A stretch of DNA of 64,000 nt from Eledone cirrhosa (lineage: Eukaryota), in assembly GCA_964016885.1 (NCBI GenBank), contig OZ024741.1, positions 202,244,001-202,308,000 on the forward strand. Direction: 5' to 3'. Made by a program: the position numbers and the translations under genes. The notes below the pieces were generated by a model. The model worked only from the letters and a program-made list of their open reading frames with translations, had not been told where the DNA came from and made no database searches. Position 1 is the first letter of the stretch. Each line of letters opens with the position of its first letter. Positions 7,517 to 62,944 of the stretch are shown here, one piece after another.

Positions 7517-8449
7517 TAATAATTATACAGAAACAGCACAAACAGAGAAGCAGATTAAGAGCCATTGAGGTCCTCTGCTGAAAATTTAATCGGGCCCTTG
7601 CGACAAACTGAATATATTATTTATGGTAGCAAAATAAAATAAAATAATAATTTGGGGCTCTTTAAATATTGTAGCACCCCGGTTACAGCTCAGTCAGAAT
7701 ACACCTCCCTATCACTTAACCTGCCACGGGTACAAACGTAAGAGTAAAGTCCCATGCCCAAAGGTAAAGAATGGGTTGTGGTAAGACAAGGAGGAGAGAA
7801 TAAGAAAAGCATTCGTTTGTGCAGGTAGACTATGAAAGGTGAAGATGGTAAGCTTCTTGCGTTTCTAGTTGTGTCTTTACTAAAGGGTCCCTCTTTTTCT
7901 CTAACAAAAGTAAGTTCCTCAAAACCGTAGACTCGTGTCAACTAGTCCACCCGTCCCCTCTATTCTGGTGTGAGTGTAAGTCGAAGTGGTCTGATGGTCA
8001 CTTAAACCGTTGATCTCCTATTTAGTCTCTGCATTGTCTTATCCCTTACATTAATAATTTCACTCACATTTCGAAGTAATGTTTTGCCTGAAACCGTACT
8101 TTACAGCACCCAAACTTATGTGAATTTCATTTAATTAATTTTTTTTACGCCTCGCTTGTGTTTAGATTGATCAAGCAGACATACAATTAAAAGTTTTCCA
8201 GCTGTGATGGTCCTCTTTTCCTTTACCGAAAGGTATCCGCTACTACATTTTTCAGTATGACCTGTTCTATTTGTGACAGGACGAGCGGCAACATAACAGT
8301 TTTCTTCGTCGCCGAATGACAGCGTCTTGTTTTCAACACCGGTTAACTTGCATATTGCCTTTTTGAAATTTGATATAATATATCTGGGACATTTTAATTA
8401 GTGATTTACTTAATAATATCTCGGAATTTAATCAAATCGTGCAGACATT

Positions 8450-8647
8450 ATGTGCCTGAAAGCCTGTCTGTTGTATTCCACCGGCTGCTTTTCATTACTT
8501 CCACTGTCTTGTTTACCTCTGTTGGTGCTTTATGGTTTTGCATGCGGTGTGGATACTATTCTTCAAATGTCAATACTCTTGTCATTGGCCTGTGTCTTGG
8601 GGCATTATATTTCGATTAACTGGATTTTTCTTCAACCCTTTGGAGAG
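8450..8647 (+). CDS. Coding exon 1 (66 aa) of a multi-pass membrane protein, Ice2/SERINC-like
   Basis: ATG at 8450, hydrophobic MCLKACLLYS..LPLLVLYGFACGVDTILQMSILLSLACVLGHY..FLQPFGE, then a strong donor GAG|GTATGT at 8647/8648 in phase 0, matching the acceptor phase at 45591/45592. Confidence 0.7.
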
Positions 8648-8944
8648 GTATGTATCTATTGTAAGCTCACCCTGAAATAAACTTTTACTATCAAATTTAG
8701 TAACTCTGGCCACGTTTATTATCAAGCACTAACAATAATTGACTTCCTATCAAATCTAATACTTTAAAGCAAAATTAGAACTTAGCTGGTTCATTATTTA
8801 TTAATTCTTAATAATTAGTGTTACATATATATATGTAATGTTTAATGCTAAAAATAAAATGAACGAATGTTTATTTATGAAGGCTTAGAAGTCATGGAGT
8901 TTGATACAACTCAAAAATGTGTTAAATATTGTCGCGAGCAGTGC

Positions 8945-9090
8945 TAATAGAGTTACGGCCCTTGCTATTCTGAGTTCAAATCCCGCCAAGGTTAACTTTG
9001 CCTTTCATCCTTATGGGGTCGATAAAATAAAGTACCAGTAATGCACTAGGTATTTGCTGGCCTTGTGCCAAAAGTAGAAACAATTATTAT
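8945..9090 (+). mobile_element. tRNA-derived SINE
   Basis: GAGTTCAAATCCCGCC B-box followed by GTTAACTTTGCCTTTCATCCTT..GGGGTCGATAAAATAAAGTACCAG..GGCCTTGTGCCAAAAGTAGAAAC. Confidence 0.8.
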
Positions 9091-9659
9091 TTTTAAAATA
9101 AAATATTTAGCATTATTAATAGCAATTAAAAAGTACCGGACAAGCGTGCGGAAGCATTCAATCATGAAATTAAAATAAATGATAGCCCCACAGAATAAAC
9201 TTATAAATAGTAGTTTTATTGCAACACAACTTAGCTGCAATTTTTAAAAGAAGCGCCACAGTTCTATTCACGTTTTTTCTATAAAATAAAAAACAAAACA
9301 ATTAAGGTATTATTGACGATATTGTTATAATAGTTGTAAGCAATAAAATGATTAACAGATCCCAATTTCGAAGGATATTGGAAGTGGGGAGGTATGTAAT
9401 CGAAAAATGTATTCAAATATTCCGCCCAGTCATGGTTGTATGGTCTAAGAAGTTTTATCCCACTTCGCTACACTTTGGATAAGCTATACCATCGGGTTCA
9501 CTAATAGCTTGTATGTTGAATTCGGTGGGCGGAAACTGCGAAAGTCTATCGTAAATATGTATATAGGTAATTGTTGTGTAAAATAATCTAATTTATTCAC
9601 GCCTTTTACACAATTACAATACAATTTATATAATGTAAAAGAAGGGGTGAACAACGGAG

Positions 9660-10100
9660 CCAACATCAGAGCAAAATACAGCAACGTCGCGAGTACTGGG
9701 CAACCTCTCTAATGATTTTTGAGGCAAGCCAGCACACTCGCAGCGTTGCCTGGGGTGATGGCGAGGTTGATGCGCTGAAACAGCCAAGTACCCTCGCGAG
9801 ATTCGCCAGTCACCTCTATTAGGCGAGCCGCCAGTGAGGAAAGGAACCTCGCAGTCAGCGACCCGACTCCCCCAAACGTCTCGAAAGCCACAGGCTGAAA
9901 AATGTAGCTGGCCGACAGATCAGAGTATTTGAGGGTCTTACTCCGCTCGGCTGCGGAAACTGTGGCTCTCGTCCTAACCGCAGCATCCAGGATGTGGGAA
10001 AGAGCAAAGGAGTCACTAACAGTGACGTCCCAGACAAGGCACCTGCCTCTCGACCAGGGGCACAGGGTAAGACCGTCAGGTCTTTTGCCGTCACTTCTGG
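9660..10100 (-). mobile_element. CRE-clade non-LTR retrotransposon 3' end (restriction-like endonuclease), copy A
   Basis: Reads DGKRPDGLTLCPWSRGRCLVWDVTVSDSFA..KYSDL..FQPVAFETFGGVG..WLFQRINLAITPGNAASVLACL, the RLE signature of CRE elements. CpG-rich, so probably younger than its neighbours. Confidence 0.85.
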
Positions 10101-10339
10101 TAATTGTTTATTTTTCGGATGTAAAATTACTTTTGACTTTCGCACTTAGCTCATATTGACAACGCTGGTGTATCATTAACTCTTTAATGAAAAACGTTTT
10201 ATTCACTGTTGTATAGAAAGATATAATAATACAATGCTTACAGAACGAAAGCACAGTCAAATATAATATAAAGCAAAGGAGAAAGAGAAAAGAAAACACA
10301 CACACACACATCTGGGACCACATACAACAAAAGGCAGGC

Positions 10340-11060
10340 GAAAGGGGTAGACAACCGAGCCGCTACCAGAGTAAAAGATAACAGTATTGCGAGGATTGGG
10401 AAACCTCTCTAATGATTTTTTATAGTGAGGCTGATGCGCTGGAACAACCTAGCGCCCTCACGAGCTTCACCAGTTACCTCTGTTAGACGAGTCGCCAGTG
10501 AAGATAGGAATCTCACAGTCAATAGCCCAACTCCCCCAAACGTCTTGAATGCCACAGGCTAGAAAATGTAGTTAGCTGATATCACAGTATTTTAGGATTT
10601 TGCTCCATTCGGCTGTGGAAGCTGTGGCTCTCGCCCTAACCGCAGCATCCAGGATGTGGGAAGAAGCAAAAGGGTCACTAACTGTGACGTCCAAGACAAG
10701 GCATCTACCTCTCGACCAGGAGCACTGGGTAAGGCCTCAGGTCTTTTCCCATCATTTCTGGACAACCCAGATGGTTCCAAGATCGAAGGGATGTTTGCCC
10801 GGGGACAAAGCTCTTTTGAGAATAAGGTTTAGCTGTGTGACATGAAGCAAGAAAGACTGTGGAGTCGAGGTGTTTGTCACAGCGACACCTCAAACCTGTA
10901 CAGGCATCAGCTCCCACTCTGAGGGCAATGGCGACACGAAGTTCATCCAAACTGAGTAAGCTACCAACATTAACCCAGTTATCTGAGTATATGGCACTGG
11001 CAGATAGTAAGCGGCACCTTGAAAACTGATCCCGGCAGACTGCGTGCTTTCTGTATGCCA
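10340..11060 (-). mobile_element. CRE-clade non-LTR retrotransposon 3' end, copy B
   Basis: Reads LSLDELRVAIALRVGA..CRCDKHLD, EPSGLSRNDGKRP, WSRGRCLVLDVTVSDPFA and PVAFKTFGG. Clearly homologous to copy A. Confidence 0.85.
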
Positions 11061-11064
11061 CCAT

Positions 11065-11868
11065 ACTGGGTGGTTCCTGTCATGTCCTCAACTTGACCGC
11101 CTCACAGGGGGGACTGGGCTGTCATGTCACCAGCATGGCCACCCTGCAGGAGGTTTAGATGCTTTTGTCATGTTACCTAACAGAGAGGACTTTGTGTTCT
11201 TTTGTTATGACACCAACATGAGCACCTTGCATGGTCGACTAAGGGCTTTTGTTGTGTCACCAGCATGACCACCTTACAGGTGGACTGAGAGCTTTCAGCC
11301 ACCCAACAGAATTGTGGGAGAGCGTGTTCAGATGTCCATACTTGTATACATGGGTTGGTCAAGATTGGTGAATCGGATGTGGAAAGTAGGGGTGGGGGTT
11401 GGAGAAGTAGGTCTCGAGTGGGGCACTTAGTTGGTGAAGGGTGGAGTGATTAGGATGTAGGAGGAGTATGGTGGTGCTTATTAGAGATCACTAGATGCTG
11501 CTACATCCCTTGTACAATGGAAGGTGGGTCTTCTGCAGTGTTGTATAACACCAGAGATCACAACCCTGTGTCATTGCCTGAGAGAGGCATATTTGTGTAA
11601 GGTCAGTTTTTATCGCCTCATCCCAAGCTTTGCTAAGTCTTCCTCTTCCATAGCTACCATCAGTTTTGGGTGCACTGCACCTTTTTATACAGCTGACATC
11701 CTTCATGTGCATTACATGTCCATACCATGGCAATCTCCTACCCTGCACATTGCATCTGATCCCTCTTATTCACAGTTTCTCTCTCAGTTCATTTACACTT
11801 TGCTGTTCATGTATATTATTATTACACATCCATCAGTGCATGCAAATTTAATTTCTTTCCAAATCTTA
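11065..11868 (-). mobile_element. RTE LINE 3' end and 3' UTR
   Basis: ORF 11491-11748 reads RRLPWYGHVMHMKD..IKRC..GRGRLSKAWDEAIKTDL. Upstream it reads LERN*ICMH*WMCN. Confidence 0.8.
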
Positions 11869-11869
11869 T

Positions 11870-12153
11870 GAATATGAAATCCATTTTGCTCCATCATGTC
11901 TACATTTTGATTTACAAGGTATCCCACTTCATTTAGAGAAAAAGTATTGCATCATGTAAACATTGAATGCAATACTATATCAACATTTATGTATCTTGGT
12001 CTTCAAGTTTCATTTTGAAGTAATCCTTGTATCTTGCTTGTATGAATGTCGTGATGTTTATCTCACAGTCCTTGAATGCATATTCCCCACAGATGTAGCA
12101 AAAGTAAAGTCATGTAAATTGAAATGGAGAAATAAAAACAGTAATCCACAGTG
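11870..12153 (-). mobile_element. Chapaev3-like (CMC superfamily) DNA transposon remnant
   Basis: 11987-12106 minus translates YFCYICGEYAFKDCEINITTFIQARYKDYFKMKLEDQDT*, matching the FCYICGEY..IT..Y..YF..KL.DQD N-terminal motif of these transposases. CACTG occurs at the putative 5' end. A subterminal TAGA-TGATGGA-CAAAA motif is present here and, inverted, at about 12390-12415. Confidence 0.55.
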
Positions 12154-12789
12154 AACAGAGCAATTACCATTTTGATACAAGTCACAATAATATCTGAAAC
12201 ACGCATTTAAATGAAAATGTTCTAAATATAGACATGACCTAATATGTGTTATATTTACTTTTACAAGGCGATCACAAAAAGAACAATCAAAAGTATCCTT
12301 AAAAAACAAATATATAAACATTTGACATACTGCATGCTACATTACATTTCTGTAAATTCAATATCTAGGAGGTATCTTGTAGATCAAAGTCTAGATGTGA
12401 TGGAACAAAACTGACTTCATATTCAAAAAGAGCACATAATTAGCTAGAAATCACCCTATTAAAGAAACTTTTTTTTATTTGTCATGTTGTGTAATTAGCT
12501 ATTTTAAAAACCTTCCAACATCATTTATGTAATAACCTTTCATGAATAATACTTTAAACACCAGATTAATAATGAGAACATTTGTTATATTATTTAATCT
12601 GTTAAAAATTCTTTAATTTCAAAATTATTTGAAAATCCTAGGTAATACGTTACGAAAAAAGAGTGCCATATGAAAATTTTAATCAATAATTTAAAAGAAA
12701 CTTGTTGTTCCTCAATTTTCACAGCTGCAGGAAATCTATGTAGAGAAGGGAATTCCAGAGGGTCAATATTTGGGAAGGAAAGCTGATTA

Positions 12790-13290
12790 TAATGTTTCTA
12801 CAGGTGGTGGCTTATAGACAGTTGTTACTATGACACTGCTTGGCTCAATGGATAAGACTTTGATGTTTCTTCTATAGCTAAGCCTGTTTTTTACAAACAC
12901 AGCACTGCCGTACTGCTGATGGGGGTCGCTCAATGGCTAAGACCATTCTAGGTATGGTGGGACGGTTGTTTTCACTCCCTCTGTGCATTTCTTGCAAGCA
13001 GAGAACATCACAGTGTTGCTTGCTGCATAGGTTAGCTAAGATGTTTTGTTTTGCAGAGGAGAGCCCTTCAATATTCGCAGATATGACTGTCAATGCCAGT
13101 CTTGAGGAAGTCCCTCCTTTCTGACATTAACCTCTGTGTCTATTTCCAGGCATGGTGTTTTCTCTTGGTGTTCCGTAGGTTTGTGGCTTGTAGCTTATAA
13201 CTGTTGCTTATGGTGGTGGTGATAGGCTTAGCAGTATCTTATCAATACTCCCAGGGCTGCAGGGTGGACTCTCCTATTATGACCCCGGTG
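12790..13290 (-). mobile_element. Vingi/Ingi-clade LINE, 5' end retained and 3'-truncated (APE N-terminus)
   Basis: Reads MPGNRHRG*CQKGGTSSRLALTVISANIEGLSSAKQNILANLCSKQHCDVLCLQEMHRGSENNRPTIPRMVLAIERP, then after a frameshift VIVTTVYKPPP. This is an APE start (NxxG, LQE) of the Vingi type, with a short 5' UTR and no ORF1. Confidence 0.75.
13221..13286 (-). ncRNA. HDV-like self-cleaving ribozyme fold at the LINE 5' end
   Basis: Minus strand: GGGGTCA-TA-ATAGG-AGAG-TCCACC-CTG-CAGCCCT-GG-GAGTATT-GATAA-GATACT-GCTAAG-CCTAT. P1 GGGGU/GCCCU with a G1.U wobble, P2 AUAGG/CCUAU, L3 UCC pairing with GG (P1.1), P4 AGUAUU/GAUACU, J4/2 GCUAAG containing the catalytic C. P1 distal pairs and P3 are imperfect. 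Confidence 0.7.
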
Positions 13291-13345
13291 CATTCCTGAG
13301 AGCAGTTAAATCAAGTTTAATATTCTGGGCAAGGTTTTCATCAGA

Positions 13346-16300
13346 AATCTCATTGGCTGGTAAAGTAGGAGGTGAAGGTGGTGTTTAATAATCTGATCCA
13401 GTCCTATAACCCCATTGGATGGTAAAGTAGCAGATGATGTTTGATAGTCTGATCCAGTCCTATAACCCCATTGGATGGTAAAGTAGCAGATGATGTTTGA
13501 TAGTCTGATCCAGTCCTATAACCTCATTGGATGGTAAAGTAGCAGATGATGTTTGATAGTCTGATCCTGTCCTATAACCTCATTGGATGGTAAAGTAGCA
13601 GATGATGTTTGATAGTCTGATCCTGTCCTATAATCTCATTGGATGGTAAAGTAGCAGATGATGTTTGATAGTCTGATCCTGTCCTATAATCTCATTGGAT
13701 GGTAAAGTAGCAGATGATGTTTGATAGTTTGATCCTGTCCTATAACCCCATTGGATGGTAAAGTAGCAGATGATGTTTGATAGTCTGATCCTGTCCTATA
13801 ACCTCATTGGATGGTAAAGTAGCAGATGATGTTTGATAGTCTGATCCTGTCCTATAACCCCATTGGATGGTAAAGTAGCAGATGATGTTTGATAGTCTGA
13901 TCCTGTCCTATAACCTCATTGGATGGTAAAGTAGCAGATGATGTTTGATAGTCTGATCCTGTCCTATAACCTCATTGGATGGTAAAGTAGCAGATGATGT
14001 TTGATAGTCTGATCCTGTCCTATAATCTCATTGGATGGTAAAGTAGCAGATGATGTTTGATAGTTTGATCCTGTCCTATAATCTCATTGGATGGTAAAGT
14101 AGCAGATGATGTTTGATAGTTTGATCCTGTCCTATAATCTCATTGGATGGTAAAGTAGCAGATGATGTTTGATAGTCTGATCCTGTCCTATAACCTCATT
14201 GGATGGAAAATAGCAGATGATGTTTGATAGTCTGATCCTGTCCTATAATCTCATTGGATGGTAAAGTAGCAGATGATGTTTGATAGTCTGATCCTGTCCT
14301 ATAACCTCATTGGATGGTAAAGTAGCAGATGATGTTTGATAGTCTGATCCTGTCCTATAATCTCATTGGATGGTAAAGTAGCAGATGATGTTTGATAGTC
14401 TGATCCTGTCCTATAATCTCATTGGATGGTAAAGTAGCAGATGATGTTTGATAGTCTGATCCTGTCCTATAACCCCATTGGATGGTAAAGTAGCAGATGA
14501 TGTTTGATAGTCTGATCCTGTCCTATAACCCCATTGGATGGTAAAGTAGCAGATGATGTTTGATAGTTTGAGCCAGTCCTATAATCTCATTGGATGGTAA
14601 AGTAGCAGATGATGTTTGATAGTCTGATCCTGTCCTATAACCTCATTGGATGGTAAAGTAGCAGATGATGTTTGATAGTCTGATCCTGTCCTATAATCTC
14701 ATTGGATGGTAAAGTAGCAGATGATGTTTGATAGTTTGATCCTGTCCTATAATCTCATTGGATGGTAAAGTAGCAGATGATGTTTGATAGTTTGATCCTG
14801 TCCTATAATCTCATTGGATGGTAAAGTAGCAGATGATGTTTGATAGTCTGATCCTGTCCTATAACCCCATTGGATGGTAAAGTAGCAGATGATGTTTGAT
14901 AGTCTGATCCTGTCCTATAATCTCATTGGATGGTAAAGTAGCAGATGATGTTTGATAGTCTGATCCTGTCCTATAACCCCATTGGATGGTAAAGTAGCAG
15001 ATGATGTTTGATAGTCTGATCCTGTCCTATAATCTCATTGGATGGTAAAGTAGCAGATGATGTTTGATAGTTTGATCCTGTCCTATAATCTCATTGGATG
15101 GTAAAGTAGCAGATGATGTTTGATAGTCTGATCCTGTCCTATAACCCCATTGGATGGTAAAGTAGCAGATGATGTTTGATAGTCTGATCCTGTCCTATAA
15201 TCTCATTGGATGGTAAAGTAGCAGATGATGTTTGATAGTCTGATCCTGTCCTATAACCCCATTGGATGGTAAAGTAGCAGATGATGTTTGATAGTCTGAT
15301 CCTGTCCTATAACCCCATTGGATGGTAAAGTAGCAGATGATGTTTGATAGTCTGATCCTGTCCTATAACCCCATTGGATGGTAAAGTAGCAGATGATGTT
15401 TGATAGTCTGATCCTGTCCTATAACCCCATTGGATGGTAAAGTAGCAGATGATGTTTGATAGTCTGATCCTGTCCTATAACCCCATTGGATGGTAAAGTA
15501 GCAGATGATGTTTGATAGTCTGATCCAGTCCTATAACCCCATTGGATGGTAAAGTAGCAGATGATGTTTGATAGTCTGATCCTGTCCTATAACCCCATTG
15601 GATGGTAAAGTAGCAGATGATGTTTGATAGTCTGATCCAGTCCTATAACCCCATTGGATGGTAAAGTAGCAGATGATGTTTGATAGTCTGATCCTGTCCT
15701 ATAACCCCATTGGATGGTAAAGTAGCAGATGATGTTTGATAGTCTGATCCTGTCCTATAACCCCATTGGATGGTAAAGTAGCAGATGATGTTTGATAGTC
15801 TGATCCAGTCCTATAACCCCATTGGATGGTAAAGTAGCAGATGATGTTTGATAGTCTGATCCAGTCCTATAACCCCATTGGATGGTAAAGTAGCAGATGA
15901 TGTTTGATAGTCTGATCCAGTCCTATAACCTCATTGGATGGTAAAGTAGCAGATGATGTTTGATAGTCTGATCCTGTCCTATAACCCCATTGGATGGTAA
16001 AGTAGCAGATGATGTTTGATAGTCTGATCCTGTCCTATAACCCCATTGGATGGTAAAGTAGCAGATGATGTTTGATAGTCTGATCCAGTCCTATAACCTC
16101 ATTGGATGGTAAAGTAGCAGATGATGTTTGATAGTCTGATCCAGTCCTATAACCCCATTGGATGGTAAAGTAGCAGATGATGTTTGATAGTCTGATCCTG
16201 TCCTATAACCCCATTGGATGGTAAAGTAGCAGATGATGTTTGATAGTCTGATCCTGTCCTATAATCTCATTGGATGGTAAAGTAGCAGATGATGTTTGAT

Positions 16301-19300
16301 AGTCTGATCCTGTCCTATAACCTCATTGGATGGTAAAGTAGCAGATGATGTTTGATAGTCTGATCCTGTCCTATAACCCCATTGGATGGTAAAGTAGCAG
16401 ATGATGTTTGATAGTCTGATCCTGTCCTATAATCTCATTGGATGGTAAAGTAGCAGATGATGTTTGATAGTCTGATCCTGTCCTATAACCTCATTGGATG
16501 GTAAAGTAGCAGATGATGTTTGATAGTCTGATCCTGTCCTATAACCCCATTGGATGGTAAAGTAGCAGATGATGTTTGATAGTCTGATCCTGTCCTATAA
16601 CCCCATTGGATGGTAAAGTAGCAGATGATGTTTGATAGTCTGATCCTGTCCTATAATCTCATTGGATGGTAAAGTAGCAGATGATGTTTGATAGTCTGAT
16701 CCTGTCCTATAATCTCATTGGATGGTAAAGTAGCAGATGATGTTTGATAGTCTGATCCAGTCCTATAATCTCATTGGATGGTAAAGTAGCAGATGATGTT
16801 TGATAGTCTGATCCTGTCCTATAATCTCATTGGATGGTAAAGTAGCAGATGATGTTTGATAGTCTGATCCTGTCCTATAACCCCATTGGATGGTAAAGTA
16901 GCAGATGATGTTTGATAGTCTGATCCAGTCCTATAATCTCATTGGATGGTAAAGTAGCAGATGATGTTTGATAGTCTGATCCTGTCCTATAATCTCATTG
17001 GATGGTAAAGTAGCAGATGATGTTTGATAGTCTGATCCTGTCCTATAATCTCATTGGATGGTAAAGTAGCAGATGATGTTTGATAGTCTGATCCTGTCCT
17101 ATAATCTCATTGGATGGTAAAGTAGCAGATGATGTTTGATAGTCTGATCCTGTCCTATAATCTCATTGGATGGTAAAGTAGCAGATGATGTTTGATAGTC
17201 TGATCCTGTCCTATAATCTCATTGGATGGTAAAGTAGCAGATGATGTTTGATAGTCTGATCCTGTCCTATAACCTCATTGGATGGTAAAGTAGCAGATGA
17301 TGTTTGATAGTCTGATCCTGTCCTATAACCCCATTGGATGGTAAAGTAGCAGATGATGTTTGATAGTCTGATCCTGTCCTATAACCCCATTGGATGGTAA
17401 AGTAGCAGATGATGTTTGATAGTCTGATCCTGTCCTATAATCTCATTGGATGGTAAAGTAGCAGATGATGTTTGATAGTCTGATCCTGTCCTATAATCTC
17501 ATTGGATGGTAAAGTAGCAGATGATGTTTGATAGTCTGATCCTGTCCTATAACCTCATTGGATGGTAAAGTAGCAGATGATGTTTGATAGTCTGATCCAG
17601 TCCTATAATCTCATTGGATGGTAAAGTAGCAGATGATGTTTGATAGTCTGATCCTGTCCTATAACCTCATTGGATGGTAAAGTAGCAGATGATGTTTGAT
17701 AGTCTGATCCAGTCCTATAATCTCATTGGATGGTAAAGTAGCAGATGATGTTTGATAGTCTGATCCTGTCCTATAACCTCATTGGATGGTAAAGTAGCAG
17801 ATGATGTTTGATAGTCTGATCCTGTCCTATAATCTCATTGGATGGTAAAGTAGCAGATGATGTTTGATAGTCTGATCCTGTCCTATAACCCCATTGGATG
17901 GTAAAGTAGCAGATGATGTTTGATAGTCTGATCCTGTCCTATAACCTCATTGGATGGTAAAGTAGCAGATGATGTTTGATAGTCTGATCCTGTCCTATAA
18001 CCCCATTGGATGGTAAAGTAGCAGATGATGTTTGATAGTCTGATCCTGTCCTATAACCCCATTGGATGGTAAAGTAGCAGATGATGTTTGATAGTTTGAT
18101 CCTGTCCTATAATCTCATTGGATGGTAAAGTAGCAGATGATGTTTGATAGTCTGATCCTGTCCTATAATCTCATTGGATGGTAAAGTAGCAGATGATGTT
18201 TGATAGTCTGATCCTGTCCTATAATCTCATTGGATGGTAAAGTAGCAGATGATGTTTGATAGTCTGATCCTGTCCTATAACCCCATTGGATGGTAAAGTA
18301 GCAGATGATGTTTGATAGTCTGATCCTGTCCTATAACCCCATTGGATGGTAAAGTAGCAGATGATGTTTGATAGTTTGAGCCAGTCCTATAATCTCATTG
18401 GATGGTAAAGTAGCAGATGATGTTTGATAGTCTGATCCTGTCCTATAACCTCATTGGATGGTAAAGTAGCAGATGATGTTTGATAGTCTGATCCTGTCCT
18501 ATAATCTCATTGGATGGTAAAGTAGCAGATGATGTTTGATAGTTTGATCCTGTCCTATAATCTCATTGGATGGTAAAGTAGCAGATGATGTTTGATAGTT
18601 TGATCCTGTCCTATAATCTCATTGGATGGTAAAGTAGCAGATGATGTTTGATAGTCTGATCCTGTCCTATAACCCCATTGGATGGTAAAGTAGCAGATGA
18701 TGTTTGATAGTCTGATCCTGTCCTATAATCTCATTGGATGGTAAAGTAGCAGATGATGTTTGATAGTCTGATCCTGTCCTATAACCCCATTGGATGGTAA
18801 AGTAGCAGATGATGTTTGATAGTCTGATCCTGTCCTATAATCTCATTGGATGGTAAAGTAGCAGATGATGTTTGATAGTCTGATCCTGTCCTATAACCCC
18901 ATTGGATGGTAAAGTAGCAGATGATGTTTGATAGTCTGATCCTGTCCTATAACCCCATTGGATGGTAAAGTAGCAGATGATGTTTGATAGTCTGATCCTG
19001 TCCTATAACCCCATTGGATGGTAAAGTAGCAGATGATGTTTGATAGTCTGATCCAGTCCTATAACCCCATTGGATGGTAAAGTAGCAGATGATGTTTGAT
19101 AGTCTGATCCTGTCCTATAACCCCATTGGATGGTAAAGTAGCAGATGATGTTTGATAGTCTGATCCAGTCCTATAACCCCATTGGATGGTAAAGTAGCAG
19201 ATGATGTTTGATAGTCTGATCCTGTCCTATAACCCCATTGGATGGTAAAGTAGCAGATGATGTTTGATAGTCTGATCCTGTCCTATAACCCCATTGGATG

Positions 19301-37300: not shown

Positions 37301-40300
37301 CTGTCCTATAATCTCATTGGATGGTAAAGTAGCAGATGATGTTTAATAATCTGATCCTGTCCTATAATCTCATTGGATGGTAAAGTAGCAGATGATGTTT
37401 GATAGTCTGATCCAGTCCTATAATCTCATTGGATGGTAAAGTAGCAGATGATGTTTGATAGTCTGATCCTGTCCTATAATCTCATTGGATGGTAAAGTAG
37501 CAGATGATGTTTGATAGTCTGATCCTGTCCTATAATCTCATTGGATGGTAAAGTAGCAGATGATGTTTAATAATCTGATCCTGTCCTATAATCTCATTGG
37601 ATGGTAAAGTAGCAGATGATGTTTGATAGTCTGATCCAGTCCTATAATCTCATTGGATGGTAAAGTAGCAGATGATGTTTGATAGTCTGATCCTGTCCTA
37701 TAATCTCATTGGATGGTAAAGTAGCAGATGATGTTTGATAGTCTGATCCTGTCCTATAATCTCATTGGATGGTAAAGTAGCAGATGATGTTTAATAATCT
37801 GATCCTGTCCTATAATCTCATTGGATGGTAAAGTAGCAGATGATGTTTGATAGTCTGATCCAGTCCTATAATCTCATTGGATGGTAAAGTAGCAGATGAT
37901 GTTTGATAGTCTGATCCTGTCCTATAATCTCATTGGATGGTAAAGTAGCAGATGATGTTTGATAGTCTGATCCTGTCCTATAATCTCATTGGATGGTAAA
38001 GTAGCAGATGATGTTTAATAATCTGATCCTGTCCTATAATCTCATTGGATGGTAAAGTAGCAGATGATGTTTGATAGTCTGATCCAGTCCTATAATCTCA
38101 TTGGATGGTAAAGTAGCAGATGATGTTTGATAGTCTGATCCTGTCCTATAATCTCATTGGATGGTAAAGTAGCAGATGATGTTTGATAGTCTGATCCTGT
38201 CCTATAATCTCATTGGATGGTAAAGTAGCAGATGATGTTTGATAGTCTGATCCTGTCCTATAATCTCATTGGATGGTAAAGTAGCAGATGATGTTTGATA
38301 GTTTGATCCAGTCCTATAATCTCATTGGATGGTAAAGTAGCAGATGATGTTTGATAGTCTGATCCTGTCCTATGAACCCATTGGGATGGTAAAGTAGCAG
38401 ATGATGTTTGATAGTCTGATCCTGTCCTATAATCTCATTGGATGGTAAAGTAGCAGATGATGTTTGATAGTCTGATCCTGTCCTATAATCTCATTGGATG
38501 GTAAAGTAGCAGATGATGTTTGATAGTCTGATCCTGTCCTATAATCTCATTGGATGGTAAAGTAGCAGATGATGTTTGATAGTTTGATCCAGTCCTATAA
38601 TCTCATTGGATGGTAAAGTAGCAGATGATGTTTGATAGTTTGAGCCAGTCCTATAATCTCATTGGATGGTAAAGTAGCAGATGATGTTTGATAGTCTGAT
38701 CCTGTCCTATAATCTCATTGGATGGTAAAGTAGCAGATGATGTTTAATAATCTGATCCTGTCCTATAATCTCATTGGATGGTAAAGTAGCAGATGATGTT
38801 TGATAGTCTGATCCTGTCCTATAATCTCATTGGATGGTAAAGTAGCAGATGATGTTTGATAGTCTGATCCTGTCCTATAATCTCATTGGATGGTAAAGTA
38901 GCAGATGATGTTTAATAATCTGATCCTGTCCTATAATCTCATTGGATGGTAAAGTAGCAGATGATGTTTGATAGTCTGATCCTGTCCTATAATCTCATTG
39001 GATGGTAAAGTAGCAGATGATGTTTGATAGTCTGATCCTGTCCTATAATCTCATTGGATGGTAAAGTAGCAGATGATGTTTGATAGTCTGATCCTGTCCT
39101 ATAATCTCATTGGATGGTAAAGTAGCAGATGATGTTTGATAGTCTGATCCTGTCCTATAATCTCATTGGATGGTAAAGTAGCAGATGATGTTTGATAGTT
39201 TGATCCAGTCCTATAATCTCATTGGATGGTAAAGTAGCAGATGATGTTTGATAGTCTGATCCTGTCCTATAATCTCATTGGATGGTAAAGTAGCAGATGA
39301 TGTTTGATAGTCTGATCCTGTCCTATAATCTCATTGGATGGTAAAGTAGCAGATGATGTTTGATAGTCTGATCCTGTCCTATAATCTCATTGGATGGTAA
39401 AGTAGCAGATGATGTTTGATAGTCTGATCCTGTCCTATAATCTCATTGGATGGTAAAGTAGCAGATGATGTTTGATAGTCTGATCCTGTCCTATAATCTC
39501 ATTGGATGGTAAAGTAGCAGATGATGTTTGATAGTCTGATCCTGTCCTATAATCTCATTGGATGGTAAAGTAGCAGATGATGTTTGATAGTCTGATCCTG
39601 TCCTATAATCTCATTGGATGGTAAAGTAGCAGATGATGTTTAATAATCTGATCCTGTCCTATAATCTCATTGGATGGTAAAGTAGCAGATGATGTTTGAT
39701 AGTCTGATCCAGTCCTATAATCTCATTGGATGGTAAAGTAGCAGATGATGTTTGATAGTCTGATCCTGTCCTATAATCTCATTGGATGGTAAAGTAGCAG
39801 ATGATGTTTGATAGTCTGATCCTGTCCTATAACCCCATTGGATGGTAAAGTAGCAGATGATGTTTAATAGTCTGATCCTGTCCTATAATCTCATTGGATG
39901 GTAAAGTAGCAGATGATGTTTGATAGTCTGATCCTGTCCTATAATCTCATTGGATGGTAAAGTAGCAGATGATGTTTGATAGTCTGATCCTGTCCTATAA
40001 CCCCATTGGATGGTAAAGTAGCAGATGATGTTTGATAGTCTGATCCTGTCCTATAATCTCATTGGATGGTAAAGTAGCAGATGATGTTTGATAGTTTGAG
40101 CCAGTCCTATAACCCCATTGGATGGTAAAGTAGCAGATGATGTTTGATAGTCTGATCCTGTCCTATAATCTCATTGGATGGTAAAGTAGCAGATGATGTT
40201 TGATAGTCTGATCCTGTCCTATAATCTCATTGGATGGTAAAGTAGCAGATGATGTTTGATAGTCTGATCCTGTCCTATAACCCCATTGGATGGTAAAGTA

Positions 40301-43300
40301 GCAGATGATGTTTGATAGTCTGATCCTGTCCTATAATCTCATTGGATGGTAAAGTAGCAGATGATGTTTGATAGTTTGAGCCAGTCCTATAACCCCATTG
40401 GATGGTAAAGTAGCAGATGATGTTTGATAGTCTGATCCTGTCCTATAATCTCATTGGATGGTAAAGTAGCAGATGATGTTTGATAGTCTGATCCTGTCCT
40501 ATAATCTCATTGGATGGTAAAGTAGCAGATGATGTTTGATAGTCTGATCCTGTCCTATAACCCCATTGGATGGTAAAGTAGCAGATGATGTTTGATAGTC
40601 TGATCCTGTCCTATAATCTCATTGGATGGTAAAGTAGCAGATGATGTTTGATAGTTTGAGCCAGTCCTATAACCCCATTGGATGGTAAAGTAGCAGATGA
40701 TGTTTGATAGTCTGATCCTGTCCTATAATCTCATTGGATGGTAAAGTAGCAGATGATGTTTGATAGTTTGAGCCAGTCCTATAACCCCATTGGATGGTAA
40801 AGTAGCAGATGATGTTTAATAATCTGATCCTGTCCTATAATCTCATTGGATGGTAAAGTAGCAGATGATGTTTGATAGTCTGATCCAGTCCTATAATCTC
40901 ATTGGATGGTAAAGTAGCAGATGATGTTTGATATTCTGATCCTGTCCTATAATCTCATTGGATGGTAAAGTAGCAGATGATGTTTCATAGTCTGATCCTG
41001 TCCTATAACCCCATTGGATGGTAAAGTAGCAGATGATGTTTGATAGTCTGATCCTGTCCTATAATCTCATTGGATGGTAAAGTAGCAGATGATGTTTGAT
41101 AGTCTGATCCTGTCCTATAATCTCATTGGATGGTAAAGTAGCAGATGATGTTTAATAATCTGATCCTGTCCTATAATCTCATTGGATGGTAAAGTAGCAG
41201 ATGATGTTTGATAGTTTGAGCCAGTCCTATAATCTCATTGGATGGTAAAGTAGCAGATGATGTTTGATAGTCTGATCCTGTCCTATAATCTCATTGGATG
41301 GTAAAGTAGCAGATGATGTTTGATAGTCTGATCCTGTCCTATAACCTCATTGGATGGTAAAGTAGCAGATGATGTTTGATAGTCTGATCCTGTCCTATAA
41401 TCTCATTGGATGGTAAAGTAGCAGATGATGTTTGATAGTCTGATCCTGTCCTATAATCTCATTGGATGGTAAAGTAGCAGATGATGTTTGATAGTCTGAT
41501 CCTGTCCTATAATCTCATTGGATGGTAAAGTAGCAGATGATGTTTGATAGTCTGATCCTGTCCTATAATCTCATTGGATGGTAAAGTAGCAGATGATGTT
41601 TGATAGTCTGATCCTGTCCTATAATCTCATTGGATGGTAAAGTAGCAGATGATGTTTGATAGTCTGATCCAGTCCTATAATCTCATTGGATGGTAAAGTA
41701 GCAGATGATGTTTGATAGTTTGATCCAGTCCTATAATCTCATTGGATGGTAAAGTAGCAGATGATGTTTGATAGTCTGATCCTGTCCTATAATCTCATTG
41801 GATGGTAAAGTAGCAGATGATGTTTGATAGTCTGATCCTGTCCTATAATCTCATTGGATGGTAAAGTAGCAGATGATGTTTGATAGTCTGATCCAGTCCT
41901 ATAATCTCATTGGATGGTAAAGTAGCAGATGATGTTTAATAATCTGATCCTGTCCTATAACCTCATTGGATGGTAAAGTAGCAGATGATGTTTAATAATC
42001 TGATCCTGTCCTATAACCTCATTGGATGGTAAAGTAGCAGATGATGTTTAATAATCTGATCCTGTCCTATAACCTCATTGGATGGTAAAGTAGCAGATGA
42101 TGTTTAATAATCTGATCCTGTCCTATAACCTCATTGGATGGTAAAGTAGCAGATGATGTTTAATAATCTGATCCTGTCCTATAACCTCATTGGATGGTAA
42201 AGTAGCAGATGATGTTTGATAGTCTGATCCTGTCCTATAACCTCATTGGATGGTAAAGTAGCAGATGATGTTTGATAGTTTGAGCCAGTCCTATAACCCC
42301 ATTGGATGGTAAAGTAGCAGATGATGTTTGATAGTCTGATCCTGTCCTATAACCTCATTGGATGGTAAAGTAGCAGATGATGTTTGATAGTTTGAGCCAG
42401 TCCTATAACCCCATTGGATGGTAAAGTAGCAGATGATGTTTGATAGTCTGATCCTGTCCTATAACCTCATTGGATGGTAAAGTAGCAGATGATGTTTGAT
42501 AGTTTGAGCCAGTCCTATAACCTCATTGGATGGTAAAGTAGCAGATGATGTTTGATAGTCTGATCCAGTCCTATAACCCCATTGGATGGTAAAGTAGCAG
42601 ATGATGTTTGATAGTCTGATCCAGTCCTATAACCCCATTGGATGGTAAAGTAGCAGATGATGTTTGATAGTTTGAGCCAGTCCTATAACCTCATTGGATG
42701 GTAAAGTAGCAGATGATGTTTGATAGTTTGAGCCAGTCCTATAACCCCATTGGATGGTAAAGTAGCAGATGATGTTTGATAGTCTGATCCTGTCCTATAA
42801 CCTCATTGGATGGTAAAGTAGCAGATGATGTTTGATAGTTTGAGCCAGTCCTATAACCCCATTGGATGGTAAAATAGCAGATGATGTTTGATAGTCTGAT
42901 CCTGTCCTATAACCTCATTGGATGGTAAAGTAGCAGATGATGTTTGATAGTTTGAGCCAGTCCTATAACCTCATTGGATGGTAAAGTAGCAGATGATGTT
43001 TGATAGTCTGATCCAGTCCTATAACCCCATTGGATGGTAAAGTAGCAGATGATGTTTGATAGTCTGATCCAGTCCTATAACCCCATTGGATGGTAAAGTA
43101 GCAGATGATGTTTGATAGTTTGAGCCAGTCCTATAACCTCATTGGATGGTAAAGTAGCAGATGATGTTTGATAGTTTGAGCCAGTCCTATAACCCCATTG
43201 GATGGTAAAGTAGCAGATGATGTTTGATAGTCTGATCCTGTCCTATAACCTCATTGGATGGTAAAGTAGCAGATGATGTTTGATAGTTTGAGCCAGTCCT

Positions 43301-44324
43301 ATAACCCCATTGGATGGTAAAGTAGCAGATGATGTTTGATAGTCTGATCCTGTCCTATAACCTCATTGGATGGTAAAGTAGCAGATGATGTTTGATAGTT
43401 TGAGCCAGTCCTATAACCTCATTGGATGGTAAAGTAGCAGATGATGTTTGATAGTCTGATCCAGTCCTATAACCCCATTGGATGGTAAAGTAGCAGATGA
43501 TGTTTGATAGTCTGATCCAGTCCTATAACCCCATTGGATGGTAAAGTAGCAGATGATGTTTGATAGTTTGAGCCAGTCCTATAACCTCATTGGATGGTAA
43601 AGTAGCAGATGATGTTTGATAGTTTGAGCCAGTCCTATAACCCCATTGGATGGTAAAGTAGCAGATGATGTTTGATAGTCTGATCCTGTCCTATAACCTC
43701 ATTGGATGGTAAAGTAGCAGATGATGTTTGATAGTTTGAGCCAGTCCTATAACCCCATTGGATGGTAAAGTAGCAGATGATGTTTGATAGTCTGATCCTG
43801 TCCTATAACCTCATTGGATGGTAAAGTAGCAGATGATGTTTGATAGTTTGAGCCAGTCCTATAACCTCATTGGATGGTAAAGTAGCAGATGATGTTTGAT
43901 AGTCTGATCCAGTCCTATAACCCCATTGGATGGTAAAGTAGCAGATGATGTTTGATAGTCTGATCCAGTCCTATAACCCCATTGGATGGTAAAGTAGCAG
44001 ATGATGTTTGATAGTTTGAGCCAGTCCTATAACCTCATTGGATGGTAAAGTAGCAGATGATGTTTGATAGTTTGAGCCAGTCCTATAACCTCATTGGATG
44101 GTAAAGTAGCAGATGATGTTTGATAGTTTGAGCCAGTCCTATAACCTCATTGGATGGTAAAGTAGCAGATGATGTTTGATAGTTTGAGCCAGTCCTATAA
44201 CCTCATTGGATGGTAAAGTAGCAGATGATGTTTGATAGTTTGATCCTGTCCTATAACCTCATTGGATGGTAAAGTAGCAGATGATGTTTGATAGTTTGAG
44301 CCAGTCCTATAACCTCATTGGATG
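13346..44324 (+). repeat. 56-bp tandem satellite, about 550 sequenced monomers, intronic
   Basis: Consensus CTGATCCTGTCCTATAAYCYCATTGGATGGTAAAGTAGCAGATGATGTTTGATAGT, head-to-tail and in the same orientation on both sides of the gap (about 310 units left, 239 right). A diverged proto-unit sits at 13346-13392. Confidence 0.98.
30755..30954. other. Assembly gap (200 N) inside the satellite
   Basis: Exactly 200 N. A round size suggests a placeholder, so the true array length is unknown. Confidence 0.98.
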
Positions 44325-44806
44325 TACAGATAACTATAGGTTGTTTTAAATCTGAATTAGATAGTGCTTGCTATATTCATCAAACTGACATCCGATACTA
44401 TTTCTCCCTATCTCTTCTACATTATATTCCTGCTTTCTCTTTTACTTTATATGCCTGCTTTGTTTTGATACTAAAGCGTTAATGAAAATTTATACAAAGT
44501 GAAACTTATCTTAATAGGGTTAATATTTGGGGAGTGTATATCAGTCAATATACATTAAATAGATAATTTTCAGAAAATATATCAATAGAATATATACTAA
44601 AACACAATACATAATTTTCAGAAAATATGCCAAATTATAATAAATAGCTGTCAGTAATTATACTAACAGGATATGCACCAAAATGCAACCTCATTTGAGG
44701 CTTCCTAAACCTGTACAGCAGTGAGATGTGACAACATTACAACATACACAAAAATACTATAGATAGCTTTCAGAAAATAAACCAATAAAATATTATTTAA
44801 GCTTAA

Positions 44807-45028
44807 ACTTTTGTTACCATATTTCTAATGAAATACACTGCCTATGTGTTTCAGGGCATTTTAAAAATAATCAAGAATTTGGAGTTATTTGGTAAAATAA
44901 TTAACTTTTTCATTACTAAGATGGTGTTAGGTAGATAAATCAACAAAAGTATCTTTCATAAAATTTGGAACAGTTTAAAATAAGCAATTTTGTATCATAG
45001 AAGCAGGGGTGGGTTAATATCAAAATGA
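44807..45028. mobile_element. Degenerate TTAA-flanked MITE
   Basis: TTAA at 44803-44806 and 45029-45032, with weak inverted ends ACTTTTGTTAC / ATATCAAAATGA. Same size class as the neighbouring MITE. Confidence 0.4.
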
Positions 45029-45262
45029 TTAAGCAGAATGAACACATTTAAACTTATTCTATTTTTAAAATGCTCATTATAGTCCAAACAGTGTTCTAAA
45101 GTACTTCTCAGATAGTTATGCGAATAATTGTTACTCGATTAAAATTGAAAGTATTACAATTTTCAAAACCAGAATTAACTATACCCAAGTATTTACTTTG
45201 TAATGGTAGTAAAATGTAACTGGATACTTATTTTGGATTACTAAACTGTCTTATCATTTTAA

Positions 45263-45475
45263 CTCTTTAGCATTTAAACCGACCATATCCGGCCAGAATT
45301 CTCTCACCTCTTTCTGTTCAAACCAGCCATAACTGGCTGCTTATGCCAACGTTTAGGTATTGTTCTCAAAATAAATAATATCAAAATCTCATAGATTCGA
45401 TATTATGTGAGATAATTATGTGAGGTAAAGCCTTTACCATGAAAATACAATAGTAAACATGCAAATGCTTAAGGG
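45263..45475. mobile_element. piggyBac-type MITE (TTAA TSD)
   Basis: TTAA|CTCTTTAGCATTT ... AAATGCTTAAGGG|TTAA. Same family as 60007-60227, opposite orientation. Confidence 0.75.
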
Positions 45476-45591
45476 TTAATAAATAAAAGGTAAATATATA
45501 GTGCTGAGGTATGTTAAGCAAAATATAGTTACTGTAAGATAGTTTTTTTTCAGTTATTTATTATAATTTTTTTTTGTTATTTCTTTTTTAG

Positions 45592-46512
45592 GTTGGCTTA
45601 TTTATTCTACTGTGGGGTCTGCCTGTGAATCTTGTTCCTTATTCAGTGATACATGTCTATGGCTACCTGCTCCAGTTATTTGAACCAATCATGTTGTTCC
45701 AAGAAGTTCTGTTTATTCTTCTTCTAGGTACACAACTTTTCAATTACTTAAATGAATTGACTGAAGGTGATGATGATGATAGATCATATATATCCCAAAC
45801 TGTATTTTCTATTCTTAATTATGGTTTTTCATGTTATATTGTCTCAATGTGTTTCAACAATACATGGCTCCTTTATATTATATTATTTGTTACACTGTTC
45901 AACCACATTCTTATGTGGTCATTAGAAAGTGGGCAGTTATGGGAAACTGCTTTGACATTTATGCTTACCATTCTTATACTTTTTCTCATGGACAAAGAGA
46001 AAGACTTATATCAAAATAGTGAGTTACCTACTCTATCATATTTTGATTCTAAAAACTCTTCAATAGAATTTGTGAACAGTATTTGGCAACTCAGCTTTGA
46101 GAAATTATCTTCCTTTCAGAAGTTGATTGGAAGCTTTCTAAGTCCTATTTTTGTTGGCACACTTTTCCTCCGAGTATTTTCTGTCAATTGGTTCAATTAC
46201 AGGCAAATTATTTCAATGTTTTTTGAAAATGAAGACAATGAAGATGTTTTAATTGAAGAAAGTGGTTCATCTGATTTAAGCTTCTCAAGATTACAAACAT
46301 CTCTTGTTTGTAAATTGGCCACCATTTTTGTTGTCACACAACTTATAACGAGACAGTTTTATCTTTTTATTGGAAATGGTTTAATTACTCAGCAAAAATG
46401 GATGAAATATTGGTTGCCTGAAAATATATTACTTGGAAGACTAGCACAGATGTTTTTGGTGAATATTTTATTTCAGCATTCTATATACAGACAATGGTCA
46501 AATACTGCTTAA
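45592..46512 (+). CDS. Terminal coding exon (306 aa) of the Ice2/SERINC-like multi-pass membrane protein
   Basis: Long polypyrimidine tract and TTTTTTAG| acceptor at 45590-45591. 921-nt open frame VGLFILLWGLPVNLV..YRQWSNTA* in AT-rich DNA, with many hydrophobic helices separated by acidic loops. No TE motifs. Confidence 0.85.
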   Translation, partial: VGLFILLWGLPVNLVPYSVIHVYGYLLQLFEPIMLFQEVLFILLLGTQLFNYLNELTEGDDDDRSYISQTVFSILNYGFSCYIVSMCFNNTWLLYIILFVTLFNHILMWSLESGQLWETALTFMLTILILFLMDKEKDLYQNSELPTLSYFDSKNSSIEFVNSIWQLSFEKLSSFQKLIGSFLSPIFVGTLFLRVFSVNWFNYRQIISMFFENEDNEDVLIEESGSSDLSFSRLQTSLVCKLATIFVVTQLITRQFYLFIGNGLITQQKWMKYWLPENILLGRLAQMFLVNILFQHSIYRQWSNTA

Positions 46513-62845: not shown

Positions 62846-62944
62846 TACGTTTAAGCAGAAATTCCTGCTTGGTGCCGCAGTCGGGATTCTACATATCTCT
62901 ATACCCACTCTACATCTCCCCATGTATCGAGTACTCACATAATT

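What the first reader, a model, noticed from the sequence alone, without database searches (positions are those of the whole stretch)
8450..46512. Intact two-exon gene whose single 37-kb intron is about 84% one 56-bp satellite
Seen: a phase-0 donor (GAG|GTATGT, 8647) and a phase-0 acceptor (TTTTAG|GTT, 45592) join into a seamless 372-aa frame (..FLQPFGE|VGLFILLW..). About 31 kb of the 36,944-bp intron is pure satellite, and it may be longer because of the gap. Known: satellite-filled giant introns occur in Drosophila Y fertility genes, where they slow transcription and need dedicated RNA-binding proteins. Inference: each transcript here would carry at least 550 identical RNA modules, so array length could tune expression timing or level.
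Basis: partly seen in the sequence, partly recalled or inferred. Interest (0 to 1): 0.75.

Follow-up and report, generated by a model that had tools for sequence, protein, structure and literature searches.

The report
Private minisatellite swells an octopus intron
An intact two-exon octopus gene, predicted to encode a SERINC-like membrane protein, has an intron that is mostly a 56-base repeat found nowhere else in the genome, but blocks this large are common in this animal, so the repeat likely grew in place and is likely just spliced out rather than acting as a timing device.

Summary
Observation confirmed. The 372-aa join (8647 to 45592) matches Octopus and Argonauta orthologues residue for residue at the junction. 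One contig from a transcript-like run reads from exon 1 into exon 2. The protein, unnamed in databases, is predicted to have a SERINC fold (Z 15.8) and likely belongs to the invertebrate Ice2-like family. The 56-bp unit is private to this intron (507 of 507 exact matches genome-wide), homogeneous (2.3% from the commonest unit) and likely grew in place. The Y-loop reading is weak. The array is tens of kb, not Mb. Five of 79 pre-chosen 10-kb stretches of this genome are wholly one tandem array, and 1 of 14 myosin gene spans holds a 37.7-kb array. The true length is unknown: the 200-N gap is a placeholder, and contig depth hints at about 40% of the assembled copy number, so 'at least 550 modules per transcript' is not established. 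Best reading: a tolerated, locally born intronic VNTR, like chicken 'sequence stuttering' or human TRACT. The scan noted the same arrangement before in at least seven other genes of this genome (unchecked notes). An effect on expression is untested.

The parts
8339..8449 (+). Likely 5' untranslated part of exon 1 (at least from 8339; no upstream ATG)
   Evidence: X4 contig covers 8339-8499; the only ATG in 8339-8452 is 8450
8450..8647 (+). Coding exon 1, 66 aa, ends at phase-0 donor GAG|GTATGT
   Evidence: 55-57/66 identical to octopod orthologues; single copy in genome; X4 contig leaves the genome here for exon 2
8648..45591 (+). Single coding-region intron, 36,944 bp as assembled (true length unknown)
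   Evidence: same position and phase as the 13,372-bp intron of the paralogue on C2 at 103.37-103.39 Mb
13343..13416 (+). Degenerate edge unit of the array (62-bp variant), grading into unique intron DNA
13382..30754 (+). Left arm of the 56-bp tandem array, 308 units between anchors
   Evidence: lacks unit variants 27A and 31A (0/294 each)
30755..30954 (.). 200-N scaffold gap, placeholder of unknown true size
   Evidence: the same 200-N length at two unrelated gaps (L092; C11:46,660,010)
30955..44324 (+). Right arm of the array, 232 units, same orientation
   Evidence: private variants 27A 29/223, 31A 28/223; no suffix-prefix overlap with the left arm (best 30% of units)
45592..46512 (+). Coding exon 2, 306 aa + stop, phase-0 acceptor TTTTAG|GTT
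   Evidence: X4 contig begins at 45591, the G shared by both joins

Best explanation
This is an intact, spliced two-exon gene, predicted to encode a SERINC-fold (likely Ice2-like) membrane protein, whose old intron holds a 56-bp tandem array private to this locus that likely grew in place and is likely transcribed and spliced out as tolerated filler. Shown: exon order, frame, conserved junction, one junction contig, unit confined to this intron, high homogeneity with local runs of variants. Inferred: a unique 56-bp piece of intron was duplicated once and then amplified by slippage and unequal exchange or gene conversion; it persists because the unit carries no polyA signal and no strong splice site and because this genome tolerates such arrays widely. 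The cost would be some tens of minutes of extra elongation (at a recalled 1-3 kb/min), handled by ordinary splicing with no dedicated programme. The array likely differs in length between alleles.
For: Junction conserved in 4 named octopod species; junction contig in X4. Unit private: 507 exact 30-mer matches in 3.0 Gb, all 507 in the window, all forward; with 2 mismatches 541 of 542. Young and homogenised: 39 unit types among 540, mean 2.3% from the commonest, variants in local runs and short higher-order repeats. The intron is older than the array: the paralogue has the same phase-0 intron, 13,372 bp, with only TA-type microsatellites. Base rate: 5 of 79 evenly spaced 10-kb stretches are wholly one array (6.3%, 95% CI 2-14%), each a different unit (57, 49, 23, 84, 16 bp); 9.6% of sampled bases lie in complex arrays of 1 kb or more; one of these units has 1,798 exact matches, all forward. 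1 of 14 tiled myosin gene spans has a gap-free 37,678-bp array of a 45-bp unit between colinear exons. Array + strand: 0 AATAAA/ATTAAA in 30,943 bases against 20 in 6,001 other intron bases; no strong donor or acceptor pattern. Fold: human SERINC3 Z 15.8, rmsd 5.3, 278 aligned, next row 7.4; the two SERINC structures rank first in Foldseek; Atlas feature hits ICE2.
Against: No test of expression against array length was possible, and human TRACT shows that an intronic VNTR of this size can matter (PMC13131567, 10.1101/2025.09.15.676436, abstracts). Orthologous intron sizes could not be read, so 'recent growth' rests on homogeneity and on the paralogue. The junction evidence in this species is one low-depth contig under the tool's bridging bar. 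The lack of polyA signals is weak, since one 56-bp unit lacks them by chance about 9 times in 10 (my estimate). 13 of 14 tiled myosin spans have no array of 10 kb or more, so such introns are common but not the rule. The fold was modelled on the O. vulgaris orthologue; Foldseek E-values were 0.017 and 0.11, TM 0.35-0.45; 0 of 23 family members hit Pfam ICE2 and 1 hit Serinc at E 0.026.
Confidence: 0.75

Rival explanations
1. The assembled array length is wrong: the two arms are read-length stubs, possibly from the two homologous chromosomes, stacked across the placeholder gap, or one homologue has a much shorter array. The gene is real but the intron is perhaps 20-25 kb on an average allele. 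(Compatible with the best explanation; it bears on the '37 kb / 550 copies' claim.)
For: Contig depth of satellite words divided by single-copy depth is 0.24-0.56 of the count of the same words in the assembly (16 of 16 ratios under 0.6; runs X1-X3, one sample); equal 31-kb arrays on both homologues would give 1.0 or more. Arms are 17.4 and 13.4 kb, about one long read each (recalled); they carry private variants and do not overlap; one-off 55/57-bp units cluster in the right arm near the gap.
Against: The tool states that contig depth is no copy number; library type is not on record, and each unit holds a GATC, so a Hi-C or other biased library would under-sample it. Variant B is frequent on both sides of the gap, as in one array with a missing middle. 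Private variants are also expected in separate parts of one long array.
Confidence: 0.4
2. The array acts in cis on this gene, as human TRACT does on CACNA1C: its length or variants change level, timing or isoform choice, through elongation delay, chromatin or binding sites repeated hundreds of times.
For: Precedent: TRACT, a 30-bp intronic VNTR of 3-30+ kb, has long alleles associated with lower expression, and adding or removing it changes neuronal responses (abstracts). The array lies in the first intron. O. bimaculoides has an alternative first exon spliced to the same acceptor (P0004).
Against: No conservation or selection signal seen; the paralogue lacks it; many unrelated private arrays elsewhere in the genome make a chance landing the default. 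The alternative first exon was not found in this window.
Confidence: 0.12
3. It works like a Drosophila Y-loop gene: a satellite-filled giant intron that slows transcription and needs dedicated RNA-binding proteins in a germ-cell programme.
For: Satellite fills 84% of the intron and must be read through if the gene is expressed.
Against: Y-loop introns are megabases of simple satellite, over 99% of the locus, transcribed over about 90 h (PMC6508621 abstract); here 31 kb, 81% of the coding span, a complex private unit, in the middle of a 416-Mb chromosome.
Confidence: 0.03
4. Mis-join: the two exons belong to different loci that were scaffolded together through a shared satellite.
For: The gap lies inside the array and no read spans it here.
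Against: Each exon is single-copy; the unit exists nowhere else in the assembly; orthologues and the X4 contig join exactly these two exons.
Confidence: 0.02

Closest known systems
'Sequence stuttering' in chicken dot-chromosome introns (Hron et al. 2026, PMC12954441; abstract and part 1 of sections 7 and 8 read)
   Same: Locally born repeat of tens of bases, confined to one intron, coding exons intact, absent from the paralogue's intron
   Different: Here a regular, 96%-matching array of about 31 kb (their worked example is an intron of 1.6-2.9 kb), on a 416-Mb chromosome, not copied from an exon; allele length variation only hinted
Human TRACT VNTR in CACNA1C (PMC13131567; 10.1101/2025.09.15.676436; abstracts only)
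   Same: Single-locus intronic minisatellite of similar total size (3-30+ kb) with internal variants
   Different: 56-bp against 30-bp unit; no functional or population data here; here one of many such arrays in the genome
Drosophila Y-loop genes kl-3, kl-5, intron gigantism (PMC6508621; abstract and outline)
   Same: Tandem repeat makes up most of an intron that has to be transcribed
   Different: Tens of kb against megabases; complex private unit against simple satellites; no sign of a sex-chromosome or germ-line programme (not testable here)
Invertebrate 'intermediate ICE2-like' family of the SERINC superfamily (bioRxiv 10.1101/2021.01.08.425964; passages and section 16 read)
   Same: About 380-aa multi-helix membrane protein without a Pfam hit, relatives in molluscs, an echinoderm and Branchiostoma, SERINC fold, ICE2 feature hits
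   Different: The paper's member list is in a supplement that I could not see; no function is known; two paralogues in this genome

Membership tests
Drosophila Y-loop type intron gigantism | Megabase-sized introns | tested here: not met
   36,944 bp as assembled; gap size unknown, but depth points to fewer copies, not to megabases
Drosophila Y-loop type intron gigantism | Simple satellite making up over 99% of the locus | tested here: not met
   Complex 56-bp unit, 84% of intron, 81% of coding span
Drosophila Y-loop type intron gigantism | Satellite intron is transcribed and spliced out | tested here: inconclusive
   One junction contig in X4 implies read-through; nascent RNA not seen
Drosophila Y-loop type intron gigantism | Spermatocyte-specific programme with dedicated RNA-binding proteins | not testable with these tools
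   No tissue-labelled RNA run or protein data
Sequence stuttering (local intronic repeat expansion) | Repeat of local origin, confined to one intron | tested here: met
   507 of 507 exact and 541 of 542 two-mismatch matches in the window
Sequence stuttering (local intronic repeat expansion) | Coding exons intact; paralogue's intron lacks the repeat | tested here: met
Sequence stuttering (local intronic repeat expansion) | Length differs between alleles and individuals | tested here: inconclusive
   Depth ratio 0.24-0.56 in one sample is only a hint
Sequence stuttering (local intronic repeat expansion) | Imperfect, loosely organised tandems on dot microchromosomes | tested here: not met
   96% matches, 0% indels; chromosome of 416 Mb
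Sequence stuttering (exon type) | Unit copied from the edge of a neighbouring exon | tested here: not met
   Local alignment of the unit to both exons no better than shuffled units
SERINC superfamily | SERINC multi-helix membrane fold | tested here: met
   Model of orthologue P0001 (pLDDT 78, pTM 0.74): 7rug Z 15.8, rmsd 5.3, 278 aligned, residues 7-374, the only Z of 8 or more among 48,161 chains; 7ru6 and 6sp2 rank 1-2
Pfam ICE2 (PF08426) or Serinc (PF03348) | Profile hit over the curated cut-off | tested here: not met
   Neither exon hits; 0 of 23 members hit ICE2, 1 of 23 hits Serinc at E 0.026
Intermediate ICE2-like family (bioRxiv 2021.01.08.425964) | No annotated domain, invertebrate range including Branchiostoma, nearest to Ice2 | tested here: met
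   31 hits; named ones include scallops, snails, a sea cucumber and Branchiostoma; Atlas top three feature hits carry ICE2 at 30%, 85%, 95% of members (the first may be the protein's own cluster)
Intermediate ICE2-like family (bioRxiv 2021.01.08.425964) | Mutual recovery with the paper's 42 listed members | not testable with these tools
   Member list is in a supplement that I could not see

The most novel reading that the evidence does not exclude
This octopod undergoes genome-wide, large-scale 'sequence stuttering': thousands of private minisatellites of 10-300 kb, many inside introns and differing in length between homologues, and at loci like this Ice2/SERINC-type gene the allele length sets transcription delay or output, giving a fast-evolving, heritable dial on expression.
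Probability: 0.1. Interest if true: 0.75.

Novelty: new member of a known kind. Interest (0 to 1): 0.3.

Why it matters
For this locus alone, little: an intronic VNTR of a size known from human CACNA1C, in a genome where such arrays are frequent. Two things have some value. First, the genome-wide pattern (about 6% of sampled DNA in arrays of 10 kb or more, each with its own unit, some inside conserved genes) was not found described for cephalopods in three searches of the held library; it extends local intronic repeat expansion from bird microchromosomes to octopod macrochromosomes at ten times the scale, and a simple two-exon gene with a possibly heterozygous array is a clean place to test whether intron repeat length changes expression. 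Second, the host gene, 'uncharacterized' in databases, can now be placed in the SERINC/Ice2 superfamily, a candidate animal counterpart of the fungal ER lipid regulator Ice2.

Tried and rejected
No RNA holder listed: the run search for exon 2 gave 4 runs of unrecorded kind from one study. X4 showed no depth over 44200-44310 of the array; a part without cover is no evidence. Joints all lie in dispersed repeats and were ignored. Pfam on the two exons gave nothing over cut-off; a profile search of PDB sequences gave 0 hits; a second protein search with alignment A3 gave only 4 already known proteins. The Atlas structure search found only the protein's probable own cluster above TM 0.5; an Atlas look-up of exon 2 itself was not available. 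Origin of the unit: no match to either exon or to other window DNA above shuffled controls; a DNA search with the left edge found dispersed copies only for 13150-13290, outside the array (39 of 123 candidates scored), so a transposon source was not found but is not excluded. The alternative first exon of O. bimaculoides isoform X2 was not found in 164 kb around the gene. The unit has stops in all three + frames and its dimer folds modestly: no coding or structured-RNA reading pursued. No other gene was evident among frames of 90 aa or more in the rest of the window (not scanned against families). Orthologous intron sizes could not be fetched. The journal version of the Ice2/SERINC paper is not held. 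A search of earlier notes by this protein gave nothing.
Full report
1. Observation. The coordinates hold. Exon 1 (8450-8647) ends GAG|GTATGT, exon 2 (45592-46512) starts after TTTTAG, and the join gives 372 aa. The intron is 36,944 bp; a 56-bp array of 552.7 copies, 96% matches, spans 13382-44324, 83.8% of it, with a 200-N gap at 30755-30954. The window lies at 202.2 Mb of a 416-Mb chromosome in a 3.0-Gb genome; protein identity places the animal among octopods.

2. The gene is real and the exons belong together. Exon 2 finds O. vulgaris (70%) and Argonauta (65%) proteins; the cluster also holds O. bimaculoides and O. sinensis. All full-length ones read LQPFGEVGLFILLW across the proposed junction, and exon 1 is 55-57 of 66 identical. 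Each exon is single-copy apart from one paralogue. Four runs of unrecorded kind hold exon 2. X1 runs straight through the donor; the small run X4 covers 8339-8649 only, and one contig (depth 2.1) then carries 14 letters equal to 45594-45607. Another X4 contig begins at 45591, the G shared by the spliced and unspliced forms, and a third covers the unspliced acceptor. This is a junction seen once, below the tool's 31-letter bar; with the orthologues it makes a mis-join very unlikely.

3. What the gene encodes. Pfam gives nothing over cut-off. A profile search of 1.84 billion representatives gave 31 hits around 380 aa; 10 were looked up, and the 7 named ones are an octopus paralogue, a scallop, three snails, Branchiostoma and a sea cucumber. 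The Atlas returns ICE2-bearing clusters at 0.95, 0.88 and 0.86. An AlphaFold2 model of the O. vulgaris orthologue (23 sequences, pLDDT 78) matches human SERINC3 at Z 15.8 over 278 residues, next row 7.4; Foldseek ranks the two SERINC structures first but with weak E-values, 0.017 and 0.11. A preprint describes an unnamed family between Ice2 and SERINC, mostly in invertebrates including Branchiostoma (10.1101/2021.01.08.425964, passages and section 16). The gene likely belongs there; the member list is in a supplement that I could not see. An ER lipid role is inference from Ice2.

4. The array. A 30-mer of the unit has 507 exact matches in the genome, all forward, and 507 in the window; a 23-mer with two mismatches has 542, of which 541 are in the window. 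So it is a single-locus giant minisatellite, not a dispersed or centromeric family. There are 39 unit types among 540 units, 2.3% from the commonest on average, arranged in local runs and short higher-order repeats, with a degenerate unit at the left edge. This is the pattern expected of recent growth by slippage and unequal exchange (inference). The unit is not copied from an exon or from nearby DNA, and no dispersed source was found (partial scoring). The paralogue has the same phase-0 intron, 13,372 bp, with only TA-type repeats, so the intron predates the array. The + strand of the array has no AATAAA/ATTAAA (0 in 30,943 bases, against 20 in 6,001 other intron bases) and no strong splice pattern; this explains tolerance but is not evidence of selection, since a single unit usually lacks them by chance.

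5. True length is open. The two arms have private variants (27A 0/294 left, 29/223 right; 31A 0/294, 28/223) and do not overlap. The 200-N length recurs at two other gaps, so it is a placeholder. Satellite contigs in X1-X3 have depths of 454-980 against 5-10 for single-copy DNA; the same words occur 161-321 times on average in the assembly; the 16 ratios run from 0.24 to 0.56. If depth were unbiased, the two homologues together would hold about as many units as the assembly shows on one, meaning stacked haplotype arms or one short allele. The tool warns that depth is no copy number, the three runs are one sample of unrecorded library type, and every unit has a GATC. It is a hint, but it removes 'at least 550' as a floor.

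6. How unusual is it? I took 79 10-kb stretches at positions fixed in advance (80 asked, 1 out of range; 40 on C1, 20 on C2, 19 on other chromosomes). Five are wholly one array, each with a different unit, a sixth is 80%, and 9.6% of bases lie in complex arrays of 1 kb or more. One of these units has 1,798 exact matches, all forward, the first 100 in one block. As a within-gene test I tiled 14 myosin-head gene spans (499 kb), leaving out four spans under 10 kb and lone exon hits. One holds a gap-free 37,678-bp array of a 45-bp unit (838 copies) between exons matching profile positions up to 218 and from 318 (exons for the positions between were not found); 13 hold none of 10 kb or more. A further 314-kb span between two myosin exon hits on C3 had 6 of 7 sampled stretches at least 78% array, but I did not show that it is one gene. 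Earlier unchecked notes of this scan report the same arrangement in VPS15, SRA1, LHPP, unc79, APLF, a polycystin and an SLC22 gene; I did not check them, and my base rate was measured before I saw them.

7. Mechanism and rivals. Most likely (0.75) a locally born, tolerated intronic VNTR that polymerase reads through and the spliceosome removes; at a recalled 1-3 kb/min it would add about 10-30 minutes. The assembled length may be wrong (0.4, compatible with the first). A cis effect as for TRACT is possible (0.12); a Y-loop programme (0.03) or a mis-join (0.02) is unlikely.

8. Comparison. Y-loop introns are megabases of simple satellite, over 99% of the locus, transcribed over about 90 h with dedicated proteins (PMC6508621, abstract): size and make-up tests fail. 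Chicken sequence stuttering fits local origin, intact exons and a clean paralogue, but not regularity, scale or chromosome type (PMC12954441). TRACT fits scale and single-locus nature (abstracts). Searches for cephalopod intronic satellites (listings only) showed no paper on it; most subscription papers are not in the library.

9. Verdict. A correct observation of a new member of a known kind. Interest 0.3: ordinary within this genome, with value as a simple test locus for a genome-wide pattern and for placing an unnamed gene in the SERINC/Ice2 superfamily.

Noticed in passing
L139-L145 (G000:C6:99,966,272-100,003,949): Gap-free 37.7-kb array of a 45-bp unit inside a myosin gene; unlike the 56-bp unit, this one also occurs as scattered single copies on both strands (29 among the first 100 listed), so it likely grew from a dispersed repeat.
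   Followed up: partly
L172-L178 (G000:C3:0.89-1.20 Mb): Between two myosin-head exon hits 314 kb apart near a chromosome end, 6 of 7 sampled 10-kb stretches are mostly tandem arrays of several different units (24-48 bp); may be one gene with several satellite-filled introns.
   Followed up: partly
L002, L093-L094 (G000:C2:103,372,2xx-103,386,8xx, minus strand): Paralogue of the host gene, 29% identical, same two-exon layout and intron phase; orthologue of LOC106874476 / LOC115217313.
   Followed up: yes
L015 (G000:C1, from 14.945 Mb): 57-bp array with 1,798 exact forward matches, likely one block of well over 100 kb.
   Followed up: partly
window 9709-10107 and 10705-11079 (minus), 11491-11769 (minus): Broken reading frames in the 5' part of the intron that look like non-LTR retrotransposon pieces (labels recalled, not tested); 9650-10100 and 10380-10750 are related copies.
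   Followed up: no
window 54209-55244, 59456-60027, 62855-63199, 3181-3486: Further retrotransposon-like broken frames outside the gene (recalled likeness, not tested).
   Followed up: no
P0004 (O. bimaculoides isoform X2): An alternative 24-residue first exon joins the same acceptor in that species; no counterpart found here.
   Followed up: partly
L014, L052, L054, L090: Several mid-sized arrays have 48- or 72-bp units that resemble dispersed repeats also present in the window (for example 45400-45460), suggesting that dispersed repeats seed many arrays.
   Followed up: no
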